A stretch of DNA of 44,517 bases, from the sequence record OR594183. One strand, given 5' to 3'. Of this stretch, positions 1 to 36,565 are shown piece after piece (the first letter of the stretch is position 1; each line of letters opens with the position of its first letter). The notes under the pieces are model-generated. The model worked only from the letters and a program-made list of their open reading frames with translations, was not told where the DNA came from and did not search any database. The position numbers were made by a program, and so were the translations under genes. The stretch comes from Escherichia phage vB_EcoM_SHAK7858.

Positions 1-1224
1 ATGCATTGCAAGTTTCCGGCATTCGTAGCTGGCTTCGGTACGGGTAAATCCGAAGTTATGTGCAACTCTGCACTACTCGACAGCATGGAAGGTGGTAGCG
101 ATTCTATCATCGCCATGTATGAGCCGACTTATGACCTGGTGCGCCTCATCCTTGCACCGCGTATGGAAGAAAAGCTCACCGACTGGGGTATCCGGTACAA
201 ATACAACAAGTCTGACAACATAATCTATACGTCTTCCGGACAATTTGGGGATTTTGTTCTGCGTACACTTGATAATCCAGCACGAATCGTTGGCTACGAA
301 TCGTTTCGTGCGAAAATCGACGAGTTGGACACCCTTAACATGGAGCACGCCGAGCACGCGTGGAACAAAGTCATCGCCCGTAACCGCCAGTTGCCGCGGA
401 CATATAAACCTATTACACCGAAACCTGCTAATACCGTTTCCGTGTTCACTACCCCGGAAGGATTCCGTTTCGTACATGACCGCTGGGTAGTCAAAAAGAA
501 TCCAGGCTACGAGATGATTCAGGCGTCCACCCTGTCTAACCCGTTCCTGCCAGAAGATTATGTGCAGTCGTTACGCGACACATACCCAGGTCAGTTGATT
601 GACGCCTACATCAACGGCGAGTTCGTCAACCTGACGGCGGGGACTGTCTATTACGCCTATGACCGCAGGAAAAACAGCAGCCGCGAAACAATAAAACCAG
701 GCGAGACTCTGTATATCGGGCAGGACTTTAACGTAGGCCACATGGCTAGTACAGTTTACGTGCAACGTGGCAAAGTCTGGCATGCAGTCGCCGAGTTGGT
801 GGATATGTTCGATACGCCCGATGTGGTGAGAGCCGTAACAGAGCGCTGGAAAAGTAAGGGCCACTATATCGTTATGTACCCCGACGCAAGCGGTAAAAAC
901 CGTAAAAGTAACAACGCCAGCACATCTGATATTGCCCAGTTACAGCAGGCCGGCTTCGAAGTGCGCGCTAAATCGACAAACCCACCGGTTAAAGACCGCG
1001 TAGCGGCGATGAATAAGGCGCTTGAATCTGGTATGGTCATGATTAATGAACAGGCTTGCCCTGTTACCGCACGATGCCTGGAGCAACAGGCTTACGACAA
1101 GAACGGCGAACCGGATAAATCAGGCGATGTGGACCACCAGAATGATGGAACCACATACCCTATAGCGTATGAAATGCCGATTCGCAAACCAGTTATTAAC
1201 GTCCCGGTGACTTTCGCACTTTAA
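1..1224 (+). CDS. Terminase large subunit, C-terminal 407 aa of the gene; the 5' end appears to lie at 44470-44517
   Basis: Walker-A-like AGFGTGKS at the N-terminal end of the fragment, RNase-H-like nuclease-type C-terminal region, position directly upstream of portal. Reading frame is continuous across the window junction. Confidence 0.85.
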   Translation: MHCKFPAFVAGFGTGKSEVMCNSALLDSMEGGSDSIIAMYEPTYDLVRLILAPRMEEKLTDWGIRYKYNKSDNIIYTSSGQFGDFVLRTLDNPARIVGYESFRAKIDELDTLNMEHAEHAWNKVIARNRQLPRTYKPITPKPANTVSVFTTPEGFRFVHDRWVVKKNPGYEMIQASTLSNPFLPEDYVQSLRDTYPGQLIDAYINGEFVNLTAGTVYYAYDRRKNSSRETIKPGETLYIGQDFNVGHMASTVYVQRGKVWHAVAELVDMFDTPDVVRAVTERWKSKGHYIVMYPDASGKNRKSNNASTSDIAQLQQAGFEVRAKSTNPPVKDRVAAMNKALESGMVMINEQACPVTARCLEQQAYDKNGEPDKSGDVDHQNDGTTYPIAYEMPIRKPVINVPVTFAL

Positions 1225-1236
1225 GAGGATTATTCA

Positions 1237-2712
1237 ATGTTAACTATGAACGGTCAGAATCAGGGTGTTAAGACAAAACACCGGGAATGGCTGCATCACT
1301 TCGATAAATGGCAGAAGGTACGCCACGCTCTTGAAGGCGACCTTATCCGCTATCTGCGCAACGTCGGGAAGAACGAGCCTGACCAGACCTACGCAGCACA
1401 GCGACAGGAAGAATACGAGAACGGCGCTATCTGCTACAATTTCACCAAACGCACGCTGGCGGGGATGACGGGGTCAGTGATGCGCAAAGACCCTGAGCAG
1501 ATTATCCCGCCTGAACTTGAGTACCTGTTGCACAACGCTGACGGTTCAGGTGTCGGGCTGTGGCAGCACGCGCAGGATACGCTGATGGAGATTAACTCGA
1601 TAGGCCGTGGCGGGTTGCTGGTGGACGCCCCGGAAACAGCCGCAGCAACGGCGGCAGAGCAGAACGCGGGATTATTAAACCCGGTAATCGCATTCTATAC
1701 CGCGGAGAACATTATCAACTGGAGACTCACCCGCATCGGTTCAGTGAACCGCGTGACGATGGTTGTATTGCGTGAGGCATGGGAATACTCGGAACCAGGC
1801 GCTGAGTTTGAAACAAAATTCGGCGAGCAATACCGCGTCCTTGACCTGATTGACGGTCGCTACCGCCAGCGCATCTACCGCTTCGATGCCGAAGGTGGCG
1901 CACAGGATGAAGTAATCGAAATCTTCCCGGAACTCGGCGAACAGTTGCGCGGTAAAATCCCGTTCACGTTCATTGGCGCAAGCAACAACGACGCCACTAT
2001 AGACGATGCGCCTTTACTGCCGTTAGCTGAGCTAAATATAGGACACTTCAGAAATTCGGCCGATGTGGAAGAGGCCAGCTTTATAGTAGGTCAACCGACA
2101 CTGTTCATTGCCCCCGGCGAGAACATGAGCATGGAGCAGTGGAAAGACGCCAACCCACACGGCATACGCATGGGGTCGCGTTCAGGCCACAACATCGGCT
2201 CCGGCGGAAATGCGTTTCTGGTTCAGGCGGCGGAAACTAACCTCGCCAAACAGAATATGCTGGATAAAGAGAATCAGGCCATCCAGATTGGCGCGCAGCT
2301 TATCACCCCGACGCAGCAAATCACCGCGGAATCGGCCCGCCTGCAACGCGGCGCCGACACGTCAGTCATGGCAACAATAGCACGTAATGTAAGCATGGCG
2401 TATACCGATGCGTTGCGCTGGGTTGCGGGTATGCTTGGGCTTAGTGAAGATACTGAGTTCAAGCTGAATATGGAATTCTTCCTGCAACCTATGACAGCTC
2501 AGGACCGCGCTCAGTGGATGGCGGATATTAACGCTGGCCTGCTACCCGCCACCGCTTACTATGCTGCGTTGCGCAAGGCAGGTGTGACTGACTGGACAGA
2601 TGAGGACATTCAGAACGCTATTGAAGACGCACCTCTGCCGTTGGGTTCTGTTGCTCAGGTAGCGGGAGAGATTCCGCAGTCGGCGCAGCAACAGGACACC
2701 ACTCAGCAGTAA
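1237..2712 (+). CDS. Portal protein
   Basis: 491 aa ORF immediately after the large terminase and before the Mu-F-like head protein; call is by size and gene order. Confidence 0.7.
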   Translation: MLTMNGQNQGVKTKHREWLHHFDKWQKVRHALEGDLIRYLRNVGKNEPDQTYAAQRQEEYENGAICYNFTKRTLAGMTGSVMRKDPEQIIPPELEYLLHNADGSGVGLWQHAQDTLMEINSIGRGGLLVDAPETAAATAAEQNAGLLNPVIAFYTAENIINWRLTRIGSVNRVTMVVLREAWEYSEPGAEFETKFGEQYRVLDLIDGRYRQRIYRFDAEGGAQDEVIEIFPELGEQLRGKIPFTFIGASNNDATIDDAPLLPLAELNIGHFRNSADVEEASFIVGQPTLFIAPGENMSMEQWKDANPHGIRMGSRSGHNIGSGGNAFLVQAAETNLAKQNMLDKENQAIQIGAQLITPTQQITAESARLQRGADTSVMATIARNVSMAYTDALRWVAGMLGLSEDTEFKLNMEFFLQPMTAQDRAQWMADINAGLLPATAYYAALRKAGVTDWTDEDIQNAIEDAPLPLGSVAQVAGEIPQSAQQQDTTQQ

Positions 2713-2722
2713 GTTCACCTAT

Positions 2723-2744
2723 AGCCCCGAAAGGGGCTTTCTTA
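2723..2744 (+). terminator. Hairpin plus T-rich tract after the portal gene
   Basis: agcccc-gaaa-ggggct followed by ttctta. Confidence 0.4.
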
Positions 2745-2748
2745 TAGT

Positions 2749-3825
2749 ATGCTATTAACTTTAGCGCCACAGGGTTTATCTATGAGCTTACTTACATCCC
2801 TAATCAGCCATCAGATATGGCTGCAACGCACCGCATCCGGTGAGGTGAAAGACCTCACGCCGTTCATTCAGGAGATAAGGGATGAAATCAAACGGCAGGT
2901 GCTGTTATTCGGTGACGACGGTCGCAGCACTGCGCGACTGAATAAACTGTTACGCGACCTGGAAGAAGCACTAACCGGTATTACGGGTGACTGGCAAACA
3001 AAGCTAACAGACGACCTTAAGGAACTGGCGGCGTACGAGGCTGAGTGGAACGTAAAGACACTGACCGCCAACGTAGACGCGGAATTTGTTACGCCTACCG
3101 CTGAGCAGGTATGGGCCGCTGCCGAGTTTCAACCATTATCATTGAGCGACAAGCCCGTTGATTTCACCAAGCTGATGTCTGGATGGGGCGAAACGGAAGT
3201 AGCACGTCTTGTAACTGGAGTTAAGATGGGCTTTGTGCAAGGTCAAACCACACGGCAGATTGTTAAGAATGTTGTTGGCGCTGGTGGACTAGCCGACATC
3301 TCAGAACGTAACGCGACTACGGTAATCCGCACCGCGCTGTCCCACGTATCCAACGAGGCCCGTAACGAGACGTACCGCCAGAACGACGACATCATCGAGA
3401 AGTACGAGTGGGTGTCAACGCTTGACAGCCGCACCAGTACGATTTGCAGGGTCAGAGACGGGATGACGTGGGAAATTGGTAAGGGGCCGATGCCCCCAGC
3501 CCATCCGAACTGCCGGTCGTGCACGGCTCCGGTAATCAGTTCCGAGTTCGACTTCCTCGATAAAGGCGCAAAACGCGCGGCTAAAGGCGCGGAAGGTGGC
3601 ACTCAGGTAAGCGCAGACACCACTTACTACGAGTTCCTTAAACAACAACCGGCGTGGTTTCAGGACCAGGCGCTCGGCCCGGTGCGAGGTAAGATTTTCC
3701 GTAACAGCGGTATATCGCCGGAAGAGTTTCGCGTAATATCTGTAGATGGTTTCGGGAATCCGCTCACGCTTAAGCAGATGGCGGAACTCGATAAACGTGT
3801 TGCTGATTATCTGAAAGGGGAATAA
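2749..3825 (+). CDS. Head morphogenesis protein (Mu gpF-like minor head protein)
   Basis: Conserved C-terminal HPNCRSC motif typical of the Mu F family; position after portal. Start could be 2749 or the ATG near 2779. Confidence 0.75.
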   Translation: MLLTLAPQGLSMSLLTSLISHQIWLQRTASGEVKDLTPFIQEIRDEIKRQVLLFGDDGRSTARLNKLLRDLEEALTGITGDWQTKLTDDLKELAAYEAEWNVKTLTANVDAEFVTPTAEQVWAAAEFQPLSLSDKPVDFTKLMSGWGETEVARLVTGVKMGFVQGQTTRQIVKNVVGAGGLADISERNATTVIRTALSHVSNEARNETYRQNDDIIEKYEWVSTLDSRTSTICRVRDGMTWEIGKGPMPPAHPNCRSCTAPVISSEFDFLDKGAKRAAKGAEGGTQVSADTTYYEFLKQQPAWFQDQALGPVRGKIFRNSGISPEEFRVISVDGFGNPLTLKQMAELDKRVADYLKGE

Positions 3826-4286
3826 TGATGGGCTTTTTCAAAGTAACTGACGTACCGTCTCGTCGCGTAGTCCAGTACGCCCGCGTGTCTGGCTCGGGCG
3901 AGAACGTGGTATTTATTGAGGACGAAAGTGTACTCGGTACACCGGTAGATGATATGCCGTTTGCAGATAAAACCGGTATTGCGTTGCCCGCCGCCGGTGT
4001 GCTTTATGAAATTCCGTATCTGGCGGACGCTGGCGACGTGTATTTCTCTGTGCAACCGAAAGACGCTGAACTGGCAGACGGCAGCGCGACTATCACTGTC
4101 GAAGTTAAGGCGGGTAAAGCGCCGTATACGCTGACCTGGTACAAAGACGGTAAGGAAGTGGTAAACGCCCCAGAAGAGGCTTTGTCTCTGTCGGTTAATG
4201 CGGTAGGTGAATACTTCGTTAAAGTTACTGATGCCGATGGCGTAGAGGTGGTGAGTAAAGCGGCGAAGGTCACTAAGCCAGAATGA
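3825..4286 (+). CDS. Ig-like domain protein (possible head decoration or accessory protein)
   Basis: C-terminal PYTLTWYKDGKEV...GEYFVKV pattern resembles an Ig-like fold; paralogous to the ORF at 7601-7951. Confidence 0.5.
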   Translation: MMGFFKVTDVPSRRVVQYARVSGSGENVVFIEDESVLGTPVDDMPFADKTGIALPAAGVLYEIPYLADAGDVYFSVQPKDAELADGSATITVEVKAGKAPYTLTWYKDGKEVVNAPEEALSLSVNAVGEYFVKVTDADGVEVVSKAAKVTKPE

Positions 4287-4290
4287 CAAA

Positions 4291-4321
4291 AGGCCCCGTT
4301 ATGGGGCCTTAGTTTTATTTT
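4291..4321. terminator. Bidirectional rho-independent terminator
   Basis: aggcccc-gttat-ggggcct followed by a T-run; lies between convergent genes. Confidence 0.6.
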
Positions 4322-4523
4322 AACGGAACCTTGTGTTTATGTAATCCTCATGCACGACCCTCAGAACAGTGTCGTAGTCCCCGTATCTTGCAGGGTCAAA
4401 TACATATAACGCCCTCTCAGCAGAATTTACGTCAGGGAAAACCTGAAGAACCTTTTTAACCCGGCACAAGTCGCCATCAAATTCTTCATCGAACTCTTGA
4501 ACTACTTCGCAAATCGCATACAT
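4320..4523 (-). CDS. Hypothetical small acidic protein (67 aa), reverse-strand orphan inside the head module
   Basis: ORF with a strong SD (aggagg) before the ATG, its own upstream promoter with the recurrent palindrome, terminator downstream. Confidence 0.55.
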   Translation of the reverse strand: MYAICEVVQEFDEEFDGDLCRVKKVLQVFPDVNSAERALYVFDPARYGDYDTVLRVVHEDYINTRFR

Positions 4524-4549
4524 TTCCGCCTCCTGTTTAATTTGACTGA

Positions 4550-4578
4550 ATAGTACCCTATTATGTTGTGGTGTGCAA
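4550..4578 (-). promoter_or_regulatory. Sigma70-like promoter (TTGCAC-N17-TACTAT) with embedded palindrome TGAATAG-N4-CTATTAT
   Basis: Hexamers and spacing read on the minus strand; palindrome at about 4547-4564; directly upstream of the 4320-4523 gene. Confidence 0.45.
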
Positions 4579-4644
4579 ACTATTTGTTTACGTATTCCAG
4601 TTATTCCACTCGATTGTAAATGTAGGAATAAACTATTCGAATAG

Positions 4645-4787
4645 TTGACTTTTCACTAAAAATGTGCTAAGCTCCACCTGAGCTTGTGAAGTATGAACAA
4701 GCGACCGCGGCGCGGGCAGGTAACGGAGCGGGACGTAAGTCCTGAGTGTAGTTACGCTGACGCGTTCGGAAGGGCCATACTCTATTG
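4645..4787 (+). promoter_or_regulatory. Conserved promoter-leader element, copy 1 (TTGACT-N17-TAAGCT plus about 115 nt of leader)
   Basis: About 80 percent identical by eye to 36228-36370, with a 51-nt perfectly identical core at 4660-4710; inverted repeat aagctc-cacct-gagctt at the -10/+1 region. Confidence 0.5.
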
Positions 4788-4853
4788 CTTGTGTAAAAAG
4801 TAACAGGTTTACTTAGATTACGCCGTTTCTATGTTTAAATGATAAGGACTAGC

Positions 4854-4880
4854 GCCCTGCTTTAAGGCAGGGCTTTACTT
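4854..4880 (+). terminator. Terminator-like hairpin in the leader upstream of the spanin genes
   Basis: gccctgc-tttaag-gcagggc followed by tttactt, about 190 nt downstream of the promoter at 4645. Confidence 0.4.
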
Positions 4881-4897
4881 ATCGAGAAAGGAGAAAC

Positions 4898-5284
4898 ATG
4901 AATCTTAAAGCAACCGTCGTAGCAGGAGCATGTTTCATCATCCTGGCTTACACACACGGCATTTATCAGTACCGCAGCGGCTGGCACGAAGGCCGGGCGA
5001 ATCTCGTTTCGCAGCAACAGCAGAAAGCGCAGGCGGAGTTAGCGAAGAAAACACAACGGCAGCAGCAGGACGAATCAAAGGCCGCCGCCGCCGACAACGA
5101 AGGCAAGACGAAATCAGAGGTGATTACCCGTGAAGTCGTTAAATACATTAAAACGCCGGGTCGCAGCGTGTGCACTTTCGACGATGCTCGCGTCCTGCTC
5201 AAGTCCCACGCCGTCGCAAACGCTAATTCCATTACCGGATACGACGATGATGCAGCCTCCGTGCAAACTGGCAGCGCCAAGTAG
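4898..5284 (+). CDS. Inner-membrane spanin component (Rz-like)
   Basis: N-terminal transmembrane segment followed by a Gln/Ala-rich helical region; a lipoprotein ORF overlaps in another frame. Confidence 0.55.
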   Translation: MNLKATVVAGACFIILAYTHGIYQYRSGWHEGRANLVSQQQQKAQAELAKKTQRQQQDESKAAAADNEGKTKSEVITREVVKYIKTPGRSVCTFDDARVLLKSHAVANANSITGYDDDAASVQTGSAK

Positions 5285-5393
5285 CGACGCTGACGAGGAT
5301 TTAGCTATCGACGTTCAGAACGCTGAATGCGTACGGCAGCTGCGGCTGAAAGTGTTCATGTTGCAGGATTACGTGAGGAATATTCTGGAATAG
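5130..5393 (+). CDS. Outer-membrane spanin component (Rz1-like lipoprotein), GTG start
   Basis: Signal peptide with lipobox LASC, proline-rich mature region, overlaps the 3' part of the Rz-like gene in a different frame and extends beyond it. Confidence 0.55.
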   Translation: MKSLNTLKRRVAACALSTMLASCSSPTPSQTLIPLPDTTMMQPPCKLAAPSSDADEDLAIDVQNAECVRQLRLKVFMLQDYVRNILE

Positions 5394-5475
5394 TTGCCTT
5401 GTATGTTGGAATAATTTATTCTTGACATGTAAATCCGGGAGGCCCGGATTCCAACGTCCAGGGGACATACTGACT

Positions 5476-6180
5476 ATGAATCGTTTTTTACGTTATCCGT
5501 TCCAGGAAGAAGCTGGGGCAGAAGATAAAGCTGGTGGCGGTGACGCGCCTAAAATGTTCACCGCTGAAGAAGTTCAGGCGCTGATTGAGAAAGAAGTTGC
5601 CGGGCTTAAGGCTAATCAGGAAGCATTGTTGGCGGAGAAGAAAGAAGCCGCTCGCAAAGCAAAAGAGGCCGAAGAAGAACGGCAGCGCGCGCACCAGGAG
5701 GCGTTAAAAGCCGCTGGTAAGATGGATGAGTTCGAAAAGACGATTCGTAGCCAGTATGACCCGGTGCTAGCCGAGAAAGATGGTCGCATCTCCAAAATGG
5801 CAGAGCGTATCCTCGGCAGCGAACGTAAAGCGGTGCTAGGCTCTTTCGCGGGTGACTTTATTACCCCAGAAGCAGTGGACATTCTTGCTCCGTTCGTTAA
5901 GACTGAGTTTGAAGGCGATGACGTGGTTACTAAGTTTGTTGGCGCAGACGGCAACGTAATCACGACTGACCCGGAACAGTTCCGCAAATACTTGCGAGAA
6001 CACAAAGCGTTTTCACATTTGATTAAAGCAAATGCAGCTTCCGGCGGCGGGGCTTCCGGTAGCAAAGGCGGCGGGGCCGCACCAGCGTTTAAAGACATGA
6101 GTGAAGCGGAGCGTATCGCTCTGTACGAATCGAACCCTGCCGAATTTGAACGGCAACTTAAAGCCCTGAGGAAAAAATAA
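5476..6180 (+). CDS. Head scaffolding protein (putative)
   Basis: Helical, charged, Ala/Glu/Lys-rich protein immediately upstream of the major capsid gene. ORF track opens at 5422 (TTG); the first ATG is at 5476. Confidence 0.5.
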   Translation: MNRFLRYPFQEEAGAEDKAGGGDAPKMFTAEEVQALIEKEVAGLKANQEALLAEKKEAARKAKEAEEERQRAHQEALKAAGKMDEFEKTIRSQYDPVLAEKDGRISKMAERILGSERKAVLGSFAGDFITPEAVDILAPFVKTEFEGDDVVTKFVGADGNVITTDPEQFRKYLREHKAFSHLIKANAASGGGASGSKGGGAAPAFKDMSEAERIALYESNPAEFERQLKALRKK

Positions 6181-7229
6181 TGGCAATTACTACTATCGGC
6201 GACATCGTAACTGGTAAAGAATCGGTAATCCTGTCCTACATGACAGAGGACCCGGTAGAGAAAACCGCGTTCTTCCAGTCCGGTATCCTTACCTCGACTC
6301 CGTATGCCGCCGCTATCGCAAACGGCCCGTCCAACAAAGCGGTCCTGCCGTACTGGAAAGCTATTGATACCTCTATCGAGCCGAACTACTCGAACGACGT
6401 ATATCAGGACGTCGCCACCCCGCGTAACGTGCAAACCGGTGAGATGGATGTTCGCGTAGCTTACCTGAACGAAGGTTTTGGTCAGGCGGATTTGACTGTC
6501 GAACTGACCAGCCAGAACCCGCTGCAATCCGTAGCGTCCCGTCTGGATAACTTCTGGCAGCGCCAGGCACAACGCCGTCTGATTGCTACCGCGCTCGGTC
6601 TGTACAACGACAACGTAGCTGCTACCGATGCTTACCACGAGCAGAACGACATGGTTATCGACGTGTCTGCTACTCTGGGCTTCGATGTGGGCGCGTTCAT
6701 CGACGCTACCCAGACTATGGGCGATGCTCTGACGGGCAACGGCGGTGAAGTGCTGGGGGCTATCGCGATGCATAGCTTCGTTTATGCGCAGGCACGTAAG
6801 CAGCAGCTTATCGACTTCATCCGTGACGCGGACAACAACACCATGTTCGCCACCTACCAGGGCTACCGCGTGATTGTTGACGACAGCATGACCGTAGTCG
6901 GCACTGGCCCGACCCGTAAGTTCATCTCCATCATCTTCGGCAACGGCGCTATCGGTTACGGCGAAGGTTCTCCGTCCAACCCGCTGGAATACGAGCGCGA
7001 AGCGTCCCGCGGCAACGGCGGCGGCGTTGAAACCCTGTGGACCCGTAAGACCTGGTTGCTACATCCGTTTGGTTACAGCTTCACCAGCGCAGTAATCACC
7101 GGTAACGGCACCGAGACTGTCGCACGTTCTGCTTCCTGGCAGGACCTGGCGAACGCCTCTAACTGGAGCCGTGTTGTTGACCGTAAGCACGTACCGATTG
7201 CCTTCCTGGTAACTGGTGTCGGTGCTTAA
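6180..7229 (+). CDS. Major capsid protein
   Basis: 349 aa ORF directly after the scaffold, followed by a strong terminator; call by position and size. Confidence 0.75.
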   Translation: MAITTIGDIVTGKESVILSYMTEDPVEKTAFFQSGILTSTPYAAAIANGPSNKAVLPYWKAIDTSIEPNYSNDVYQDVATPRNVQTGEMDVRVAYLNEGFGQADLTVELTSQNPLQSVASRLDNFWQRQAQRRLIATALGLYNDNVAATDAYHEQNDMVIDVSATLGFDVGAFIDATQTMGDALTGNGGEVLGAIAMHSFVYAQARKQQLIDFIRDADNNTMFATYQGYRVIVDDSMTVVGTGPTRKFISIIFGNGAIGYGEGSPSNPLEYEREASRGNGGGVETLWTRKTWLLHPFGYSFTSAVITGNGTETVARSASWQDLANASNWSRVVDRKHVPIAFLVTGVGA

Positions 7230-7246
7230 GGTTAAGCTATAATCGA

Positions 7247-7273
7247 GAGGGACTTCGGTCCCTCTTTTCATTT
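7247..7273 (+). terminator. Rho-independent terminator after the major capsid gene
   Basis: gagggac-ttcg-gtccctc followed by ttttcattt. Confidence 0.6.
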
Positions 7274-7288
7274 ACTAAGAGGTAAATT

Positions 7289-7588
7289 ATGGTCAAGACC
7301 GGAAAAGGCTTGCCGCGCAGCCTTCAGAATGTCGATTTCGGCGACTTTGATATCCCAGTCACGCCTGCTACTACCAGCGTAGTTGGTGGGGTTAAAAAGT
7401 CAGCTACTGTAGCCGCACCTGCGGCGGTTACCGCTGGTAAAGGAGCGCAGTCCGCCGCGGCACCGACTAAGGAAGAGTTCGACGCCCTTGTAGCGGAGTA
7501 CAACAAACTCCAAACCGATGTTACCGCGCTGCGCACTACCGTAGCAAATCTGTTGACTGCGCTTAAAAACGCAGGAACCGTAAGCTAA
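7289..7588 (+). CDS. Hypothetical head-associated protein (99 aa)
   Basis: Ala/Thr-rich ORF between capsid and neck genes. Confidence 0.45.
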   Translation: MVKTGKGLPRSLQNVDFGDFDIPVTPATTSVVGGVKKSATVAAPAAVTAGKGAQSAAAPTKEEFDALVAEYNKLQTDVTALRTTVANLLTALKNAGTVS

Positions 7589-7600
7589 AGGAGCTTAAAA

Positions 7601-7951
7601 ATGGTTGATGTAATCAAACGTCGTATTACCGGTGTTTCTGATGATTCTCCTGCCGATGGTCAGGTTGAAATCGATATGGCGAATATCTCGCCAGCGTCTT
7701 TTTCTACCGCGCTTGCGGCTACCACCGCAGTTACGGTGGGGCGGACTATGACTCTTACCGTAGTGGTAACTGGCGGTCTGGAGCCGTATTCCTACCAGTG
7801 GTACAAAGATAACAACGCCATCGACGGAGCCACCGCAGCTACCTATGCGAAGGCGTCCACTACTACCGCAGATTCAGGCACGTATAAAGTGGTTGTTCAC
7901 GATGTGTATGGTAATATTATCTCCAGCAGCACCGTAGCAACTGTGTCTTAA
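7601..7951 (+). CDS. Ig-like domain protein
   Basis: EPYSYQWYKDNNAI...GTYKVVV pattern; paralog of 3825-4286. Confidence 0.5.
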   Translation: MVDVIKRRITGVSDDSPADGQVEIDMANISPASFSTALAATTAVTVGRTMTLTVVVTGGLEPYSYQWYKDNNAIDGATAATYAKASTTTADSGTYKVVVHDVYGNIISSSTVATVS

Positions 7952-7987
7952 TACAACGGCCCTTCGGGGCCGTAATAAGGAAAGGTC

Positions 7988-8167
7988 ATGGCAGATAATT
8001 ACGTAATCCGCGAAAAGTATACCCACGTTGATATCGTTGACGGACAGGTGATGCCTGTTCGCGGTGTGGTAGAAGCGGATGAACTGGTTGCAACCCAACC
8101 AGACAATGAAGAAGCGCACAACAACGGCGGTGGTACTAAGCGTCGTCGCCGTAAGTCAGAGGAATAA
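7988..8167 (+). CDS. Hypothetical protein (59 aa, below the ORF-track cutoff)
   Basis: Uninterrupted frame with SD aaggaaagg upstream, fits the gap between neighbouring genes; basic C-terminus KRRRRK. Confidence 0.4.
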   Translation: MADNYVIREKYTHVDIVDGQVMPVRGVVEADELVATQPDNEEAHNNGGGTKRRRRKSEE

Positions 8168-8170
8168 TTT

Positions 8171-8683
8171 ATGCCGCTAATCGTGGAAACTGGGGTGATC
8201 GTCCCAAATGCCGACAGTTACATTAGTCTGGCTGACGCCCGCGCGTTAGCGGCTAATTATGGCCTTGAGCTGCCGGAAGACGATACCGCAGCAGAGGTGG
8301 CCTTACGCAACGGTGCTACTTATGTAGGGCTTGCAGAACCGCAGATGTGCGGTCGTCGAGTATCCGCCGAACAGTCTCTTGCATACCCCCGCACCGGCGT
8401 TACGTTAAACGGGTTCCCGGTGGTCAACAACGCCATTCCGAAACAGGTGATTCTTGCGCAGGTAATCGCTGCCGCTACATATGGCGAGGGCACCGAAGTC
8501 CGGGCTAACTCAGACGGTCGCGCCGTGCAGACTGAGCGTGTCGAGGGTGCGGTAACAGTGACCTACTTCAACAATGGCAACAGTGGCGCTACGACCGCGA
8601 TTACCGCTGCTGACGACGCTTTACGCCCGTTATTGTGTGGCGGTCTTAACAATGGTTTCTCGTTTAACGTGTACCGGGGTTAA
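8171..8683 (+). CDS. Putative head-tail connector/adaptor protein
   Basis: Position in the neck region; no diagnostic motif recognised. Confidence 0.4.
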   Translation: MPLIVETGVIVPNADSYISLADARALAANYGLELPEDDTAAEVALRNGATYVGLAEPQMCGRRVSAEQSLAYPRTGVTLNGFPVVNNAIPKQVILAQVIAAATYGEGTEVRANSDGRAVQTERVEGAVTVTYFNNGNSGATTAITAADDALRPLLCGGLNNGFSFNVYRG

Positions 8684-8685
8684 AA

Positions 8686-9300
8686 ATGGCGAAGACTAAA
8701 TCAGAGATATTCACGCTAATCGGTTCCGAGCTACCGGACAACACGACCGGACTTATTACGCCTGCGAAGTTGCGCGGGGTATTAACCCAGATGGCTGACT
8801 CACCTATTTACGCCACTCCGGGTGTTAAAGAGGTTGAAGTTCTCCGCGCTGCGTCGACAGTAGCGCAAGCGCCTACCGCAGTAGATACGGCGTTGCAGGT
8901 ATCGTTCGGCTCTGATCAGGGTAGTGCATCTGACCCGGTAATGATTAATGCTGCGGGGCTGGTTACATTCAACACCGCGGGTAACTATGCCGTTCGCATC
9001 AAGTTACAGGCCGGTCGCTCCGGCGCTAGCGGAACGTCTATCCTGTTGTCGCGTATCCTCATTAACGGCGCTCAGTACGGCTCACCAGCAGCTACGAAAC
9101 TTGTTAGCTCGGAAACCACCATCCCTATTGAATCCCGTGTAGTGATTAACCCAACCGCCGGGCAAACATTCGCCGTTCAGATTATGCGAGATAGCGCCGG
9201 GACTAACTTCGGAGGCGTATACCCGCGGGTGGCTACTGTAACTGCATGGGGCACGGCACCGTCCGCGCTACTGGTTATTTCGAGACTGGAGGCTGCCTGA
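8686..9300 (+). CDS. Hypothetical structural protein
   Basis: 204 aa ORF in the neck region, translationally coupled to its neighbours. Confidence 0.4.
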   Translation: MAKTKSEIFTLIGSELPDNTTGLITPAKLRGVLTQMADSPIYATPGVKEVEVLRAASTVAQAPTAVDTALQVSFGSDQGSASDPVMINAAGLVTFNTAGNYAVRIKLQAGRSGASGTSILLSRILINGAQYGSPAATKLVSSETTIPIESRVVINPTAGQTFAVQIMRDSAGTNFGGVYPRVATVTAWGTAPSALLVISRLEAA

Positions 9301-9659
9301 TGAGCACTGCTTTCAGTAAACGTATGCAAGGCGTGGGTACACGCCTGCTAACCAAATTCGGTAGCACGGTATCTCTGATTCGCGCTGGCTCGAAAGTGTG
9401 GGATGAAGTTCTCGGTGAGTACGTCTGGTCTGCGGACGAAGTGTTGCCGTTGAAGGCCGTTCCGGTTCCTGTTAATGCGGGTCTGGTGAACGGTACGACG
9501 ATTCAGGCTGGTGACATGATTGTTAAAGCCGATTACAGCGTCGTTCCTAAGATGGAAGACAAAGTGCAATTCGGCGGCGAGCAATGGTCCGTCGTAGCCA
9601 TTGAGAAGAAGGTGGTTAACGATGATGTTGTGGCCTACTTTATTCAGGTGAGAAAATGA
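9300..9659 (+). CDS. Putative head-tail joining protein
   Basis: Position only; SD tggagg before the ATG at 9300. Confidence 0.4.
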   Translation: MSTAFSKRMQGVGTRLLTKFGSTVSLIRAGSKVWDEVLGEYVWSADEVLPLKAVPVPVNAGLVNGTTIQAGDMIVKADYSVVPKMEDKVQFGGEQWSVVAIEKKVVNDDVVAYFIQVRK

Positions 9660-10051
9660 GTTTCGCGCTGGACGTCTCTAAGTTCGTGGAAAAGGCGAAG
9701 AAGAACCCTGAGAAGGTGATGCGTCAGGTGTCTATCAAGCTGTTTTCCGCTATTATAAAGGCGAGTCCGGTAGATACTGGTCGGTTTCGCATGAACTGGA
9801 TGGCATCTGGCGGTACTCCTGCTTCCGGGATTACGGATGCTACGGATAAATCAGGAAACACAGCAACCGGAAACGCTACAAGTTTCGTGCTGAAAGCCAC
9901 CGACTGGCATGAGTTCACGCTGACAAATAACCTGCCGTATGCACAACGGCTGGAGTATGGCTGGTCGCAACAGGCCCCGCAAGGATTCGTCAGGACTAAC
10001 GTGTCCCGCTTCCAGCAACTCATTAACGAAGAAGCTAGCAAGGTGAGATGA
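9656..10051 (+). CDS. Putative neck/tail-completion protein (HK97 gp10-like)
   Basis: DTGRFRMNW motif resembles the gp10 family signature; position. Confidence 0.4.
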   Translation: MSFALDVSKFVEKAKKNPEKVMRQVSIKLFSAIIKASPVDTGRFRMNWMASGGTPASGITDATDKSGNTATGNATSFVLKATDWHEFTLTNNLPYAQRLEYGWSQQAPQGFVRTNVSRFQQLINEEASKVR

Positions 10052-10464
10052 TGGGCTACTTTGAGGACTTAACAAAAGCGTTTGATGTGCCGCTGGTAGC
10101 CTTCGGAACCACCAACGGCATCAAGGTAGCGCTTGAAAACATCGACGCGCCGACGTCAACAGATACGCCGTATCTGGCAAGTTACATGTTGCTGGCGGAT
10201 ACCGAGCAGGCTGACTTATTCTTCACGGAACAACGCGCCGGTGTCTATCAGATAGACATTAACTACGCATCGGTGAAAGGTAGCGCGCCAATCAATAAAA
10301 TGGCAGACTTACTTAACACGGCGTTTAAATCAGGTAAGGCATTTTCGCGTAACGACATCTGCGCCGAGGTTCAATCGGTTAGCCTGGGGCCGCTGATTGT
10401 AGAAAACGGATGGGCCAAACGACCATTGTCAATTAACTTTATTGCATTCACCAAGAGGCTGTGA
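10048..10464 (+). CDS. Putative tail terminator/completion protein
   Basis: Position immediately upstream of the major tail protein gene. Confidence 0.4.
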   Translation: MMGYFEDLTKAFDVPLVAFGTTNGIKVALENIDAPTSTDTPYLASYMLLADTEQADLFFTEQRAGVYQIDINYASVKGSAPINKMADLLNTAFKSGKAFSRNDICAEVQSVSLGPLIVENGWAKRPLSINFIAFTKRL

Positions 10465-10466
10465 AT

Positions 10467-11633
10467 ATGGCTACAACTCCTTTTAAGGGCGCGAATACCG
10501 CGCAATTCTATGTGGCGGAAAATACCCCTGGCGTAACACCGACTAACCCGGTATGGTCGCCGTTGCGTAACACGGGCGGCGTTCCCGCTGTAACCCGCGA
10601 TGCACTGACTTCCAACGAACTGGACGGCAGCCGTGAAACTACATCCATCCGAACCGGTAACAAACAGGTTAGCGGGGAGTACGCCATCGAACTTAGCTCT
10701 CGTAGCCAGGATGATTTCCTTGCGGGAGCGATGACTTCTACGTGGCAAGCTGGGGTAGAGATTACTGGCGCCGAAATTACGGTCGCCCCAGCAGGTAAAA
10801 CATTCACCCGCGCTGCCGGTAGCTTCATTACTGACGGTGTAGAAGTTGGCGACCTGATTGCGTTCACCGACTTAACCGGCGACAACGCAAAACCGTTTAT
10901 CGTGACCGCGGTTTCCGCTCTGGTAGTTACGGGCGCAGGTATTCAGCACACGCTGACAGCAGAGACAGTAACCACTGACGCAAAAACTGGCGACAAGCTG
11001 GAAACCGGTAACGCGTGTAAGACGTTCTCCATCCTGACGTGGTTCAAGGGCCAGTGTGGTAACCCGGGCGCGTACATGCTGACCAAAGGTGTGGAAATCT
11101 CTGGCTTTACCGTAGAGCAGGCGGTTAACGCCATGGTCACCGGCAGCTTCCCGTTCATCGGCCTGAGTCAGGAGATTCTTACCGCGCCGCCGTCTGGCTC
11201 TGATTTCTCTCAGGTTACGTTCACCGATGAGCCGTTCTCGTCGGTAGATGTGTCGGTGTTCGATGGCTCCACGCCGTTGCGTTGCGATACTCTCACCATC
11301 ACCAACGACAACGGAGCTTCCGCGCAGTTCGAACTCGGTAACAGTAGCGTGGCGTTCGTCGAACGTGGACGCGCAGCTAACACATTCTCTATCTCTGGCA
11401 AGCTGTACGACATGGCGATGATTCAGAAGTTTATCAACGAGCAGCAGGTAGAGATTAACTCTATTCTGGCGGGGGTAAACGGGGCTATGTCTTTCAGTTT
11501 GAAACGCGCAGAGCTTACGGCGGTTACACCAGAGATTGGCGGACCTGAGTCAATCACTCAGTCCATTGAGGGGCAGGCCACCGGCAACCAGTACCAGTCG
11601 TCTATCGTAATTCAACGTATCACCTACGCATAA
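10467..11633 (+). CDS. Major tail protein (putative)
   Basis: 389 aa ORF between the neck genes and the chaperone/tape-measure genes, with SD aagagg and a strong terminator downstream. Confidence 0.55.
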   Translation: MATTPFKGANTAQFYVAENTPGVTPTNPVWSPLRNTGGVPAVTRDALTSNELDGSRETTSIRTGNKQVSGEYAIELSSRSQDDFLAGAMTSTWQAGVEITGAEITVAPAGKTFTRAAGSFITDGVEVGDLIAFTDLTGDNAKPFIVTAVSALVVTGAGIQHTLTAETVTTDAKTGDKLETGNACKTFSILTWFKGQCGNPGAYMLTKGVEISGFTVEQAVNAMVTGSFPFIGLSQEILTAPPSGSDFSQVTFTDEPFSSVDVSVFDGSTPLRCDTLTITNDNGASAQFELGNSSVAFVERGRAANTFSISGKLYDMAMIQKFINEQQVEINSILAGVNGAMSFSLKRAELTAVTPEIGGPESITQSIEGQATGNQYQSSIVIQRITYA

Positions 11634-11638
11634 AACTA

Positions 11639-11662
11639 AGGCCCCTTTCGGGGCCTTTTTCT
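11639..11662. terminator. Bidirectional rho-independent terminator
   Basis: aggcccc-tttc-ggggcct with T-run on the + strand and A-run upstream; between convergent genes. Confidence 0.65.
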
Positions 11663-14103: not shown

Positions 14104-14132
14104 ATAGTACGCTATTATATTGGGGTGTGCAA
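14104..14132 (-). promoter_or_regulatory. Sigma70-like promoter (TTGCAC-N17-TACTAT) with embedded palindrome TGAATAG-N4-CTATTAT
   Basis: Same architecture as the promoter at 4550-4578; drives the reverse-strand cassette. Confidence 0.45.
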
Positions 14133-14239
14133 GTAGTGTGCTAGAATAATTTTGCGCCTAGTGTCGCACACGAAAAGCGGGTGGTTCCCGTCTGGCGCAT
14201 TTCCTTTAACCAGTAACCTCTTAACCAAAGGATTAAAGA

Positions 14240-14656
14240 ATGAAACTTTCTGATTTTTATTACGAAGCGGAAGCCGAAAAGGGCGCACGTATGCCGATAC
14301 CGCTAAAAGACGGTACTGATTCCGGGGAATGGCTTAATGTTGTTTCTCCTGAGGCGGACGTTGCCGTTAAGGCTATGCGCGCGTTCACCCTTGCATACCG
14401 GGCAGTATTAGGGAAATTAAAACCGCTTCGTGATAAGTGCGAAGAGATGAAAGATTTCTCTGAATACAACCTGAAGATGGAAGACGCGGCGACGGACCTT
14501 AACCGTCAGTTAGCGATTGAATTGGTTAACGGGTGGAGCCTTGACGACGAATTCAATAAAGAGAATCTGAACACACTCCTGACGCAATATAAACGACTCG
14601 CGGAACTTGTTGTTGTGTTTCATAACGAACAACTGCACCAGCTACAGGAAAAGTAG
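14240..14656 (+). CDS. Tail assembly chaperone (gpG-like, putative)
   Basis: Position immediately upstream of the tape measure gene. Confidence 0.5.
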   Translation: MKLSDFYYEAEAEKGARMPIPLKDGTDSGEWLNVVSPEADVAVKAMRAFTLAYRAVLGKLKPLRDKCEEMKDFSEYNLKMEDAATDLNRQLAIELVNGWSLDDEFNKENLNTLLTQYKRLAELVVVFHNEQLHQLQEK

Positions 14657-14661
14657 ACGCG

Positions 14662-18750: not shown

Positions 18751-18753
18751 CTT

Positions 18754-22189: not shown

Positions 22190-22201
22190 AGAGGACTCTA
22201 T

Positions 22202-35941: not shown

Positions 35942-36120
35942 TTCACGTTCTCCTTAATCCATGCTTCAACTTTATTACGGTCAAATGTTCCTGGTAAACG
36001 GCGACCCATAACCTTAATACAGCAATCAGGGAATTTACCGCTGCGCAACCAGTTATTAATTGTTTGACGTGTCACCCCGATACGTTCAGCCACTTCATTC
36101 TGTGTCATGTAATGCTGCAT
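35938..36120 (-). CDS. Small HTH DNA-binding protein (AlpA/excisionase-like fold)
   Basis: MTQNEVAERIGVTRQTINNWLRSGKFP; start taken at the ATG with SD aggagat. Confidence 0.55.
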   Translation of the reverse strand: MQHYMTQNEVAERIGVTRQTINNWLRSGKFPDCCIKVMGRRLPGTFDRNKVEAWIKENVK

Positions 36121-36227: not shown

Positions 36228-36370
36228 TTGACTTTTACTAAGAAATGTGCTAAGCTCCACCTGAGCTTGTGAAGTATGAACAAGCGACCGCGGTGCGGCA
36301 GGAAACGGAGCGGTGCGTCAGCACTGAGTGTAGTGTCGCTGCCTGCATTCGGAAGGGCCATAATCTATTG
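36228..36370 (+). promoter_or_regulatory. Conserved promoter-leader element, copy 2 (TTGACT-N17-TAAGCT plus leader)
   Basis: Same length as copy 1 at 4645-4787, identical 51-nt core at 36243-36293, diverged centre retaining the 10-mer ctgagtgtag. Confidence 0.5.
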
Positions 36371-36457
36371 TAAATCCCGTCTAAATAACCCAAGTCACTA
36401 ATAATTAAAAGTTTCTATAGTTGCCGTAAGCAAGGTAGAGAGTACTTCACTCCGCTG

Positions 36458-36477
36458 GGGTGGGCTAAAGCCCACCC
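36458..36477 (+). other. GC-rich hairpin in the leader downstream of promoter-leader copy 2
   Basis: gggtgggc-taaa-gcccaccc, not followed by a clear T-run. Confidence 0.3.
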
Positions 36478-36536: not shown

Positions 36537-36565
36537 TTGCACACCCCAACATAATAGGATACTAT
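36537..36565 (+). promoter_or_regulatory. Sigma70-like promoter (TTGCAC-N17-TACTAT) with embedded palindrome ATAATAG-N4-CTATTCA
   Basis: Palindrome at 36551-36568; about 35 nt upstream of the ATG at 36600. Confidence 0.45.

What the first reader, a model, noticed from the sequence alone, without database searches (positions are those of the whole stretch)
4645..4880. Duplicated 143-bp promoter-leader element, copy 1, upstream of the spanin and head genes
A 143-bp element (TTGACT-N17-TAAGCT plus about 115 nt of leader) occurs at 4645-4787 and again at 36228-36370, same orientation and same length. A 51-nt core (4660-4710 and 36243-36293) is identical; the centre is diverged but keeps the 10-mer ctgagtgtag. 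In both copies a GC-rich hairpin lies 70-90 nt further downstream before the first gene. The weak -10 (TAAGCT), the inverted repeat over -10/+1 (aagctc-cacct-gagctt) and the downstream hairpin resemble a late promoter with an antiterminator loading site and a short terminated leader RNA, or a conserved small RNA. Copy 1 is also directly preceded by a perfect palindrome CTATTCGAATAG (4633-4644) made of the same half-site as the operator-like palindrome found elsewhere.
Basis: partly seen in the sequence, partly recalled or inferred. Interest (0 to 1): 0.8.

Follow-up and report, generated by a model that had tools for sequence, protein, structure and literature searches.

The report
Duplicated promoter with structured leader RNA
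A bacterial-virus genome carries two copies of a promoter that transcribes a conserved, folded ~110-base RNA at the head of its long gene blocks; this RNA is not in the RNA-family library and probably controls how far transcription runs, though that role is inferred.

Summary
4645-4787 and 36228-36370 are two same-strand copies of one 143-bp module with a 51-nt identical core.

The window is a Kagunavirus (Guernseyvirinae) phage genome. The module is a sigma-70 extended -10 promoter, TTGACT-N14-TGn-TAAGCT. It is followed by a ~109-nt RNA (4680-4788; 36263-36371) that begins with a 5'-terminal hairpin P1. A long three-part hairpin follows (P2a/P2b/P2c), then an invariant tail UUCGGAAGG...UAUUG.

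Across 33 distinct variants, 97% of pair cells are paired and 18 of 29 pairs show double compensatory changes. Slid-register controls pair only 28-37%. No Rfam family matches.

Copy 1 is present in roughly 450 sequenced Guernseyvirinae, in two forms. Copy 2 is present in only about 40 Kagunaviruses, where it replaces a different non-coding cassette. I found nothing like it in E. coli genomes or outside this phage lineage.

Function is inferred. The most likely role is a cis-acting leader that acts on the transcribing polymerase or on read-through, in the manner of HK022 put or a nut site (about 0.4). Rivals are a stand-alone small RNA and a stability or processing leader.

Only copy 1's downstream hairpin looks like a terminator.

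The parts
4600..4633 (+). Conserved upstream inverted repeat GTTATTCC-N17-GGAATAAAC, centred near -63.5 of the predicted start. It is a candidate activator or architectural-protein site and occurs at copy 1 only.
   Evidence: Read from the sequence. The same repeat is kept in the diverged Jerseyvirus locus, CAGTTATTCC...AGGAATAC. It is absent upstream of copy 2. Its function is inferred.
4633..4644 (.). Perfect palindrome CTATTCGAATAG abutting the -35, centred near -41.5. Copy 1 only.
   Evidence: It is conserved in V1-type loci, only loosely in Jerseyvirus (TTTATTCAGAAAGT), and absent at copy 2.
4645..4673 (+). Copy 1 promoter: -35 TTGACT (4645-4650), extended -10 TGc (4665-4667) and -10 TAAGCT (4668-4673).
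   Evidence: Across 36 distinct upstream sequences the -35, the TG and the -10 are kept while the base after TG is C, A, G or T and the spacer varies. The simple consensus scan misses it because the -10 matches only 3 of 6 positions. Other annotators predicted the same promoter in phage fBC-Eco01.
4680..4788 (+). Copy 1 structured RNA element, about 109 nt: P1 (4682-4687 with 4697-4702), P2a/P2b/P2c (4705-4769), and tail AAGGGCCAUACUCUAUUGC (4770-4788).
   Evidence: Minimum-energy folds. Covariance-model hit at 139.6 bits. Covariation in all four helices. The start coordinate is the predicted transcription start and has not been mapped.
4830..4835 (+). Conserved -10-like hexamer TATGTT in the otherwise variable spacer. 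With TTTACT at 4808-4813 it forms a weak promoter-like site. It may be a second promoter or a pause site.
   Evidence: The equivalent hexamers are TATAGT or TATAAT after copy-2 variants, TATGAT in Jerseyvirus and TATATA in V4. PHIRE predicted it as 'host promoter 2' in fBC-Eco01. Its role is unresolved.
4854..4882 (+). GC-rich hairpin GCCCTGC-TTTAAG-GCAGGGC followed by TTTACTTAT, just before the spanin ribosome-binding site. It is terminator-like.
   Evidence: Terminator scan. The stem energy of -15.7 kcal/mol is comparable to the genome's clear terminators. The stem covaries: GCCCCGC/GCGGGGC and GCCCGGC/GCCGGGC.
4898..5284 (+). First gene downstream of copy 1, an Rz-like spanin. Scaffold, major capsid, head, neck and the first tail gene follow, to 11633.
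   Evidence: PHROG phrog_2536, E=3e-54. Gene order taken from the Bas73 annotation.
36228..36256 (+). Copy 2 promoter: TTGACT (36228-36233), TGc (36248-36250) and TAAGCT (36251-36256).
36263..36371 (+). Copy 2 structured RNA element. It has the same architecture as copy 1 with compensatory differences in P2a, P2b and P2c.
   Evidence: Covariance-model hit at 119.1 bits. Fold. Of the helix differences between the two window copies, 4 are double compensatory changes and 1 is disruptive.
36458..36477 (+). GC-rich hairpin GGGTGGGC-TAAA-GCCCACCC after copy 2. It has no U-tract.
   Evidence: The terminator scan does not report it. It is conserved in the V2, V3 and V7b variants and replaced by GGTGCC-TTCG-GGCACC in V4.
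36537..36565 (+). Separate near-consensus promoter TTGCAC-N17-TACTAT with an operator-like palindrome, between the copy 2 cassette and the first gene (36600).
   Evidence: Read from the sequence. The same promoter occurs on the minus strand at 4578-4550 and at 14132-14104.

Best explanation
**Shown.** Each copy is a host-type (sigma-70, extended -10) promoter fused to a ~109-nt RNA that folds from the very 5' end of the transcript. The fold is a short hairpin P1, one or two bases, then a long hairpin P2. P2 consists of an almost invariant basal helix (P2a, with a bulged C and two tandem G-U pairs), a variable middle helix (P2b), an asymmetric conserved internal loop and a freely varying tip (P2c). 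An invariant single-stranded tail UUCGGAAGG...UAUUG follows. This is a previously uncatalogued RNA family, found here only in Guernseyvirinae phages.

**Inferred.** The RNA acts in cis on the complex that makes it. After folding at the RNA exit of RNA polymerase, alone like HK022 put or with a host or phage factor like a nut site, it would make the polymerase resistant to pausing and termination. The polymerase could then pass the hairpin 65-90 nt downstream and the internal terminators of the long blocks: 7245-7266 after the capsid gene, and 37828-37849 and 2723-2738 in the other block.

Copy 1 would thereby drive the spanin, head and neck genes and the first tail gene. Where present, copy 2 would feed polymerase through the early-right block into the lysis, terminase and portal genes.
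For: **Structure**
- 33 distinct variants give 97.3% paired cells, and 18 of 29 pairs have changes on both sides.
- 0 of 500 shuffles reach the observed values.
- Slid registers pair only 28-37% of cells.
- Five of the six variant classes folded alone give the same architecture as their minimum-energy fold; the sixth, V5, does so for one of four sequences (V5g). The other V5 sequences included bases upstream of the predicted start and folded differently, and the V7 recombinant also folded differently.

**Promoter**
- The conservation pattern is that of a working promoter, with TG invariant and the following base free.

**Position**
- The RNA starts at +1 to +3 of the predicted transcript.
- Copy 1 lies between a strong bidirectional terminator (4290-4310) and the late genes.
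- The scan reports no + strand promoter (at least 9 of 12) between that terminator and the late genes; the first lies at 10273.

**Terminators to overcome**
- These are the hairpin at 4854-4873, and then 7245-7266, 37828-37849 and 2723-2738.

**Constraint pattern**
- P2a and the tail are invariant in sequence while the other helices vary only in a compensatory way. This is what is expected of a site read by a protein or by polymerase.

**Interchangeability**
- Recombinant loci carry copy-2-type P2 at the copy-1 locus, and the reverse (L032, L076).

**Parallels with put (PMC9378689)**
- Two adjacent stem-loops.
- The element starts at about +3 of the transcript.
- Two copies sit behind two promoters.
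- Long operons lie downstream.

**Possible pause element**
- The -10 hexamer recurs 3-5 nt downstream, as TACGCT-N3-TACGCT in Jerseyvirus and TAAGCT-N5-TGAGCT here.
- This is the position where sigma-dependent pause elements sit in Q, AlpA and putL systems.
Against: - There are no transcript data, so the start site, the 3' ends and read-through are all unmeasured.
- There is no sequence or model similarity to put. The covariance model does not hit the HK022 put regions.
- The downstream hairpin is a plausible terminator only at copy 1 in Kagunavirus. The Jerseyvirus tail (UUAGCGUAU) and the copy-2 tail (GCUGCGUUG) are not U-rich.
- Copy 2 is dispensable. Most relatives carry another non-coding cassette there. 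A separate good promoter (36537-36565) sits between copy 2 and the genes, so copy 2 need not be their leader.
- A weak promoter-like site lies in the spacer after copy 1 (4808-4835) and could start the late mRNA independently.
- BoxA- and ops-like matches are at chance level.
- No antiterminator protein was recognised.
Confidence: 0.4

Rival explanations
1. Stand-alone small RNA gene. The promoter makes a roughly 200-230-nt RNA that ends at or near the downstream hairpin and acts in trans, on host or phage RNA or by binding or sequestering a protein. The neighbouring genes would be transcribed from other promoters: the spacer site at 4808-4835 for copy 1 and the promoter at 36537-36565 for copy 2.
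For: - Both copies form a self-contained unit of promoter, structured RNA and GC-rich hairpin.
- Copy 2 lies upstream of an independent strong promoter.
- Copy 2 occupies a locus where other phages carry a different cassette that also has its own promoter and hairpin. This looks like exchangeable non-coding genes.
- A conserved -10-like hexamer sits in the spacer.
- The hairpin at 4854 is terminator-like.
Against: - Most of the hairpins lack the U-tail typical of enterobacterial small-RNA terminators.
- The region between the conserved RNA and the hairpin is poorly conserved.
- The invariant tail has no complementary target in the phage genome.
- There is no related sequence in E. coli genomes.
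- The spacer promoter is weak, and its -35 is not conserved in Jerseyvirus.
- Both copies point into long operons.
Confidence: 0.25
2. Leader acting after transcription. The 5'-terminal hairpin and the folded domain would protect the late mRNA from 5'-end-dependent decay. Alternatively they would be a processing or binding site for a ribonuclease or a translational regulator. There would be no effect on polymerase.
For: - P1 sits at the extreme 5' end of the predicted transcript in both lineages.
- The untranslated leader is long, at 218 nt.
- A second conserved hairpin lies directly before the spanin ribosome-binding site.
- The invariant P2a and tail would fit a protein-binding site.
Against: - A stabilising 5' hairpin does not need about 90 further nucleotides of covarying structure with invariant loops.
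- The same element also occurs at copy 2, which is separated from the genes by another promoter.
- No candidate RNA-binding protein was identified. The Arg-rich 97-aa protein gave only non-significant fold hints.
Confidence: 0.15
3. Riboswitch or attenuator. The folded domain would bind a small molecule or ion and switch the downstream hairpin between terminating and non-terminating forms.
For: - It is a conserved structured leader upstream of a hairpin.
- It has a conserved asymmetric internal loop.
Against: - No Rfam riboswitch matches, even at E<=10.
- The hairpin is 65-90 nt away, across a variable spacer.
- I found no consistent alternative pairing between the element or its tail and either hairpin arm across variants (folds, sequences).
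- The fold is two simple hairpins, with no supported multi-helix junction or pseudoknot.
Confidence: 0.06
4. DNA-level or replication role. The promoter and its transcript would prime or activate an origin, as promoters do at the T7 primary origin. Alternatively the module is mainly a protein-binding DNA site.
For: - Copy 2 lies at the divergent switch between the replication genes and the rightward genes, where cumulative GC skew is minimal.
- The phage has T7-like replication genes.
Against: - Compensatory base changes argue for selection on the RNA fold, not on the DNA sequence.
- The universal copy (copy 1) is not at the strand switch.
- Copy 2 is absent from most relatives.
Confidence: 0.04

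Closest known systems
HK022 put RNAs (putL, putR): protein-independent antiterminator RNAs that bind the RNA polymerase beta' zinc-binding domain
   Same: - E. coli phage.
- Two related copies behind two promoters.
- The element starts within the first bases of the transcript (putL).
- Two adjacent stem-loops with bulges and internal loops.
- A -10-like hexamer in the early transcribed region.
- Long operons with terminators downstream.
   Different: - No detectable sequence or covariance-model similarity.
- About 109 nt rather than about 72 nt.
- P1 is much shorter, and P2 is a three-part helix.
- An invariant single-stranded 3' tail that put lacks.
- The host is a virulent siphovirus, and the element leads late structural genes rather than lambdoid early operons.
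- Activity is untested.
Lambda-type nut sites (boxA + boxB) with N protein and Nus factors
   Same: - Duplicated RNA sites just downstream of two promoters.
- A small hairpin plus conserved single-stranded sequence.
- Would give processive read-through.
   Different: - No boxA match above chance.
- P1 is not a boxB-like GNRA-type pentaloop hairpin.
- No N-like arginine-rich protein was recognised.
- The structure is much larger.
Lambda PR'-6S RNA-tR' with Q, and Pseudomonas AlpA: DNA-loaded antiterminators at late promoters
   Same: - A promoter that by sequence needs no phage factor (inferred).
- A roughly 200-nt leader ending at a terminator-like hairpin directly before the lysis and head genes (copy 1).
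- A -10-like repeat just after the start, where a sigma-dependent pause element would sit.
   Different: - Those systems need no conserved RNA fold, whereas here the RNA fold is what is conserved.
- No Q or AlpA homologue was found. The only nearby helix-turn-helix protein is 61 aa (HTH_17) and lacks the ring-forming part of AlpA.
- There is no shared DNA site upstream of both copies.
EAR RNA and conAn2-type RNAs: antitermination RNAs of Gram-positive operons and conjugative elements
   Same: A structured RNA at the start of a long operon, proposed or shown to promote processive read-through (PMC8191782).
   Different: - Unrelated hosts and sequences.
- No Rfam match.
- conAn needs a partner protein.

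Membership tests
HK022 put RNA | Sequence and secondary-structure similarity to putL/putR | tested here: not met
   The covariance model of the element gives no hit at E<=1 on the HK022 loci L002/L003, which hold putL and the put-like repeat. No similarity is visible by eye.
HK022 put RNA | Located just downstream of a promoter, as two adjacent stem-loops, in two copies per genome | tested here: met
   The second copy exists in only about 42 of 180 Kagunavirus-type records.
HK022 put RNA | Binds the RNA polymerase beta' zinc-binding domain and suppresses pausing and termination without any protein | not testable with these tools
   This needs in vitro transcription and rpoC mutants.
Any Rfam 15 family | Covariance-model match at the gathering score | tested here: not met
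   There is no match on either copy at the gathering score. At E<=10, searched over copy 1 only (4500-5000), the only hits are two chance snoRNA matches outside the element.
Lambda-type nut site | BoxA consensus next to a boxB hairpin, plus an N-like protein | tested here: not met
   BoxA-like matches occur at chance frequency, and none lies in the element. No N-like protein was recognised.
Q/AlpA-type late promoter | A -10-like pause element in the initially transcribed region | tested here: inconclusive
   The -10 hexamer recurs 3-5 nt downstream, exactly in Jerseyvirus and at 5 of 6 positions but without the key A at position 2 here. Pausing is untested.
Q/AlpA-type late promoter | A Q- or AlpA-family antiterminator protein encoded by the phage | tested here: not met
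   None was found by Pfam or PHROGs among about 30 small ORFs. Unknown families cannot be excluded.
Q/AlpA-type late promoter | An intrinsic terminator downstream of the promoter | tested here: inconclusive
   Copy 1 has a terminator-like hairpin with tail UUUACUUAU. Copy 2 and the Jerseyvirus versions lack a U-tract.
Riboswitch | An aptamer overlapping or adjoining an expression platform with mutually exclusive pairings | tested here: not met
   There is no Rfam hit. The hairpin is 65-90 nt away, and no conserved alternative pairing was found.
Sigma-70 extended -10 promoter | TGn immediately upstream of a -10 with A at position 2 and T at position 6, and a conserved -35 at 17 nt | tested here: met
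   Activity has not been measured.

The most novel reading that the evidence does not exclude
The element is a second, independently evolved class of protein-independent antiterminator RNA, after HK022 put. The nascent RNA would dock on E. coli or Salmonella RNA polymerase and make it processive across whole late operons of a widespread group of virulent siphoviruses.
Probability: 0.2. Interest if true: 0.8.

Novelty: new variant of a known kind. Interest (0 to 1): 0.62.

Why it matters
Promoter-proximal RNAs that reprogram RNA polymerase are textbook mechanisms, but they are known from very few examples. Put is confined to a handful of HK022-like phages.

This is a well-supported, uncatalogued RNA family. 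It sits at the head of the late genes in several hundred sequenced E. coli and Salmonella phages, including therapy candidates and BASEL and synthetic-biology model phages. It offers a tractable new case for testing how a nascent RNA controls elongation, using E. coli polymerase and the existing put-resistant rpoC mutants.

Even if the role proves different, the finding has immediate uses:
- It corrects annotation. Several GenBank records place a spurious 36-38-aa 'hypothetical protein' on the element.
- It defines the late promoter region of these phages.
- It shows that the early-region locus holds interchangeable non-coding cassettes.

Tried and rejected
- **Rfam.** Gathering thresholds across the window and E<=10 around copy 1 gave nothing on the element.
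- **put homology.** The HK022 put regions were fetched and searched with the model, without a hit.
- **Host origin.** blastn against 5,426 E. coli genomes found no match.
- **Wider distribution.**
  - Two IMG/VR pattern scans and one metagenome scan were run with the invariant P2a and tail motifs.
  - Every true hit came from contigs or fragments carrying the same variant classes, mostly 40-45 kb; the rest were chance matches that the model rejected.
  - The patterns require the invariant motifs, so more diverged relatives would be missed.
- **Loop-tail pseudoknot.** The P1 loop GUAUG is complementary to the tail CAUAC in V1. It is not supported in the V2-V5 variants, so I dropped it (sequences).
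- **Tail-terminator alternative pairing.** Only 4-5 bp could form, and not consistently across variants.
- **BoxA and ops elements.** Both match at chance frequency.
- **Antisense targets.** The invariant tail has none in the phage genome.
- **Small ORF.**
  - The 37-codon ORF starts at the AUG in the P1 loop.
  - That AUG is missing in V3 and V5, and the frame is broken by the two compensating indels in copy 2.
  - A UUG mini-ORF after the tail is not conserved in length and is lost in L017.
- **Homology with the alternative cassette B.** A shared 14-mer was noticed, but local alignment scores fall within the shuffled range.
- **Protein antiterminator.**
  - Pfam and PHROGs scans of about 30 small ORFs found only an HTH_17 protein and a weak NinH-like match.
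  - The Arg-rich 97-aa protein (39566-39859) has no PDB sequence match.
  - Its model reached pLDDT 67, and the fold search gave nothing significant. The best hits were E about 1 to dsRBD and AP2 domains.
- **Literature.** I found no description of this RNA. The one Kagunavirus time-course RNA-seq paper reports gene-level data only.

Full report
**What the window is.** The window is a complete or near-complete genome of a Kagunavirus (subfamily Guernseyvirinae).
- The region around the finding is 97-98% identical to E. coli phages Bas70-75, K1H, phiEc3 and others.
- Gene order matches the annotated phage Bas73.
- Plus-strand blocks run 36600 to the window end and on through 1-4286 (small early genes, lysis, terminase, portal), 4898-11633 (spanin, scaffold, capsid, neck, first tail gene) and 14240-24187 (tail).
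- Minus-strand blocks (replication and accessory genes) lie between them.

- The two copies align over 143 bp each, with a 51-nt identical core (4660-4710 = 36243-36293) and the shared 10-mer ctgagtgtag.
- The palindrome CTATTCGAATAG is at 4633-4644.
- A covariance model built from the element finds exactly these two sites in the window (139.6 and 119.1 bits) and nothing else below E=1 with filters off.
- GC-rich hairpins follow at 4854-4873 and 36458-36477.

**The promoter.**
- The hexamers TTGACT and TAAGCT are 17 nt apart, and the three bases before the -10 are TGc, which makes an extended -10.
- In 36 distinct upstream sequences from related phages the -35, the TG and the -10 are kept.
- The base after TG is C, A, G or T, and the spacer and the -10-to-hairpin linker drift. 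That is the conservation pattern of a working promoter.
- The simple consensus scan misses it because the -10 scores only 3 of 6.
- Annotators of phage fBC-Eco01 predicted the same promoter independently.
- The start site near 4680 or 4681 is predicted, not mapped.

**The RNA and its variants.**
- From that start, the sequence folds into a 5'-terminal hairpin P1 (GCUUGU/ACAAGC). After two bases comes a long hairpin made of P2a, P2b, an asymmetric internal loop and P2c.
- I collected homologues with two IMG/VR scans, one metagenome scan and GenBank phage searches.
- They fall into distinct classes:
  - V1 is window copy 1.
  - V2 is window copy 2.
  - V3 and V4 are other copy-2 forms.
  - V5 is the form at the copy-1 locus of most Jerseyviruses such as SETP3, SE2 and Jersey (268 records).
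  - V6 is a V1-like form with a different P2c tip.
  - V7 is a recombinant of V1 and V2.

**Covariation.**
- Sequence-only alignment misplaces the inner helices. I therefore aligned the hits to a covariance model and counted pairs.
- Across 33 distinct sequences, 97.3% of cells are paired.
- 18 of 29 pairs change on both sides, against 10.6 +/- 1.8 in shuffles, and 0 of 500 shuffles reach the observed value.
- Sliding the 3' partners by 1-3 columns drops pairing to 28-37%.
- The alignment was fitted to the structure, which favours it. As an independent check, five of the six variant classes folded alone give the same architecture; V5 does so for only one of four sequences, and the V7 recombinant does not.
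- The tip helix alone takes at least six different complementary forms (GGGAC/GUCC, GGUGC/GCAC, GUGCC/GGCAC, CACGU/ACGUG, GGGCGC/GCGCCC, GGGCGU/ACGCCC).
- Within the window itself, the helix differences between the two copies comprise four double compensatory changes and one disruption.

**What is invariant.**
- P2a is almost invariant in sequence: CCG-C-GGnGCG paired with CGCnUUCGG, with a bulged C and two tandem G-U pairs. So is the tail UUCGGAAGG...UAUUG.
- That suggests these parts are read directly by a partner.

**Not coding.**
- The ORF that some GenBank records annotate over the element (Bas73_0007, fBCEco01_09) starts at an AUG in the P1 loop.
- That AUG is absent in V3 and V5.
- The frame is broken by the two compensating indels in copy 2.

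**Distribution.**
- Copy 1 is present in all 180 Kagunavirus-type records searched, and in diverged form in Jerseyviruses.
- A second copy is present in about 42 records.
- In the other phages, the locus between the leftward HTH_17 gene (36123-35938) and the rightward promoter at 36537-36565 holds a different ~300-nt non-coding cassette. It has its own promoter (TTGACA-N17-TAAGGT) and hairpin, and is found in about 397 records.
- The two are not significantly similar.
- Recombinant loci carry copy-2-type P2 at the copy-1 locus and the reverse (L032, L076), so the variants are interchangeable.
- No relative was found in E. coli genomes.
- All true hits in IMG/VR and metagenomes carry the same variant classes, mostly on 40-45-kb contigs, i.e. 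the same phage lineage.
- No Rfam family matches.

**Surroundings that bear on function.**
- Copy 1 lies after a strong bidirectional terminator (4290-4310) and a small divergent gene.
- The scan reports no + strand promoter (at least 9 of 12) between there and the late genes; the first is at 10273.
- There is one weak site, TTTACT-N16-TATGTT at 4808-4835. Its -10-like hexamer has counterparts in all variant classes, but its -35 does not.
- Upstream of copy 1, and only there, an inverted repeat (4600-4633) and the palindrome (4633-4644) are conserved into Jerseyvirus, where the -35 is poor (TAGATT). This points to a regulated late promoter.
- The hairpin at 4854-4873 has a stem as stable as the genome's clear terminators and a moderately U-rich tail. 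Its stem covaries among phages.
- The Jerseyvirus tail and the copy-2 hairpin tail are not U-rich.
- Internal plus-strand terminators exist after the capsid gene (7245-7266), after the portal gene (2723-2738) and at 37828-37849.
- Copy 2 is separated from its first gene by a near-consensus promoter with an operator-like palindrome. This promoter recurs twice on the minus strand.

**Mechanism.**
- The best-supported reading is a cis-acting leader that acts on elongation and termination.
- It resembles HK022 put in five ways: position at the very start of the transcript, two adjacent stem-loops, duplication behind two promoters, long operons with terminators downstream, and a -10-like repeat just after the start.
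- It is not a put family member, because the model does not hit the HK022 put regions.
- A factor-assisted version (nut-like) is equally possible. However, boxA and ops matches are at chance, and no N-, Q- or AlpA-like protein is recognisable.
- An Arg-rich 97-aa protein just before the lysis genes is the only candidate partner I found. Its fold assignment is not significant.
- I put this reading at about 0.4. The existence of the RNA family itself I put at about 0.9.

**Rivals.**
- **Stand-alone small RNA (0.25).** It is favoured by the self-contained cassette architecture and by the independent promoter after copy 2. It is disfavoured by the missing U-tails, the variable 3' part and the lack of targets.
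- **Stability, processing or translation leader (0.15).**
- **Riboswitch (0.06).** There is no Rfam hit and no alternative pairing.
- **Replication-priming or DNA-level role (0.04).** The GC-skew minimum is near copy 2, but the compensatory changes argue for selection on the RNA, and copy 2 is optional.

**Verdict.** This is a real, duplicated promoter-plus-structured-RNA module and an uncatalogued RNA family specific to Guernseyvirinae. Its function is unproven. The 'terminated leader with antiterminator loading site' reading is plausible for copy 1 but not demonstrated, and it fits copy 2 poorly.

Noticed in passing
window 14120-14215: The tail-gene block also starts with a promoter, TTGGGG-N16-TGc-TAGAAT (14120-14147), followed at once by a structured leader. 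The leader just passes the Rfam threshold for int-alpA RNA (RF02996, 36.6 bits against 35.8) and ends in a U-rich stretch before the first tail gene. So all three plus-strand blocks may begin with folded leaders. The hit is marginal and was not found at threshold in Bas73.
   Followed up: partly
window 36537-36565 (+), 4578-4550 (-), 14132-14104 (-): The near-consensus promoter TTGCAC-N17-TACTAT occurs three times. Each copy has a palindrome GAATAGTAnnCTATTAT over its spacer and -10. They drive the early-right genes, a 67-aa gene and the superinfection-immunity block. These are probably early promoters sharing one operator. The half-site matches the palindrome next to copy 1.
   Followed up: partly
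L044 (Bas73) 37025-37345; L221 (Jersey) 400-800; L222 (SS3e) 300-760: Where copy 2 is absent, the same locus holds a different conserved non-coding cassette of about 300 nt. It has its own promoter and hairpin and occurs in about 397 phage records. It has no Rfam hit and is unannotated. It may be another non-coding RNA gene. Its terminal hairpin and flanks resemble the copy-1 downstream hairpin with the stem arms swapped.
   Followed up: partly
window 4692-4805 and equivalents (Bas73_0007, fBCEco01_09): Several GenBank records annotate a 36-38-aa 'hypothetical protein' over the RNA element. The ORF is not conserved among variants and is probably spurious. The 88-aa minus-strand ORF at 36095-36361 over copy 2 is likewise suspect.
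   Followed up: yes
window 4668-4684; L001 1440-1455: The -10 hexamer recurs just downstream as the 5' arm of hairpin P1: TAAGCT...TGAGCT here, and an exact TACGCT-N3-TACGCT in Jerseyviruses. The two hexamers changed together between lineages. This may be a sigma-dependent pause element or a coincidence of the hairpin sequence.
   Followed up: partly
window 39566-39859 (+): A 97-aa arginine-rich protein (pI about 10.8) lies directly upstream of the lysis genes and is conserved only in this phage group. It has no Pfam or PDB sequence match. The model reached pLDDT 67 with a helix, two strands and a helix. Fold hits to AP2 and dsRBD domains were weak and non-significant. It is a candidate nucleic-acid-binding regulator.
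   Followed up: partly
window 4290-4310 and 11638-11657: Two nearly identical bidirectional terminators (AAGGCCCC-loop-GGGGCCTT with T-runs on both sides) close the blocks on either side of the head, neck and first-tail-gene block.
   Followed up: no
L062 2394-2496 (IMG/VR 2597490042_000001, 43,221-bp Salmonella phage record): There is a strong Rfam hit to ColE1-type plasmid RNAI (96 bits) inside a phage genome record. This is most likely cloning-vector contamination of that public sequence.
   Followed up: no
window 36489-36501: UACUCUUUAAAGA after the copy-2 hairpin resembles the boxA consensus (3 mismatches). Matches of this quality occur at chance frequency in the window.
   Followed up: yes
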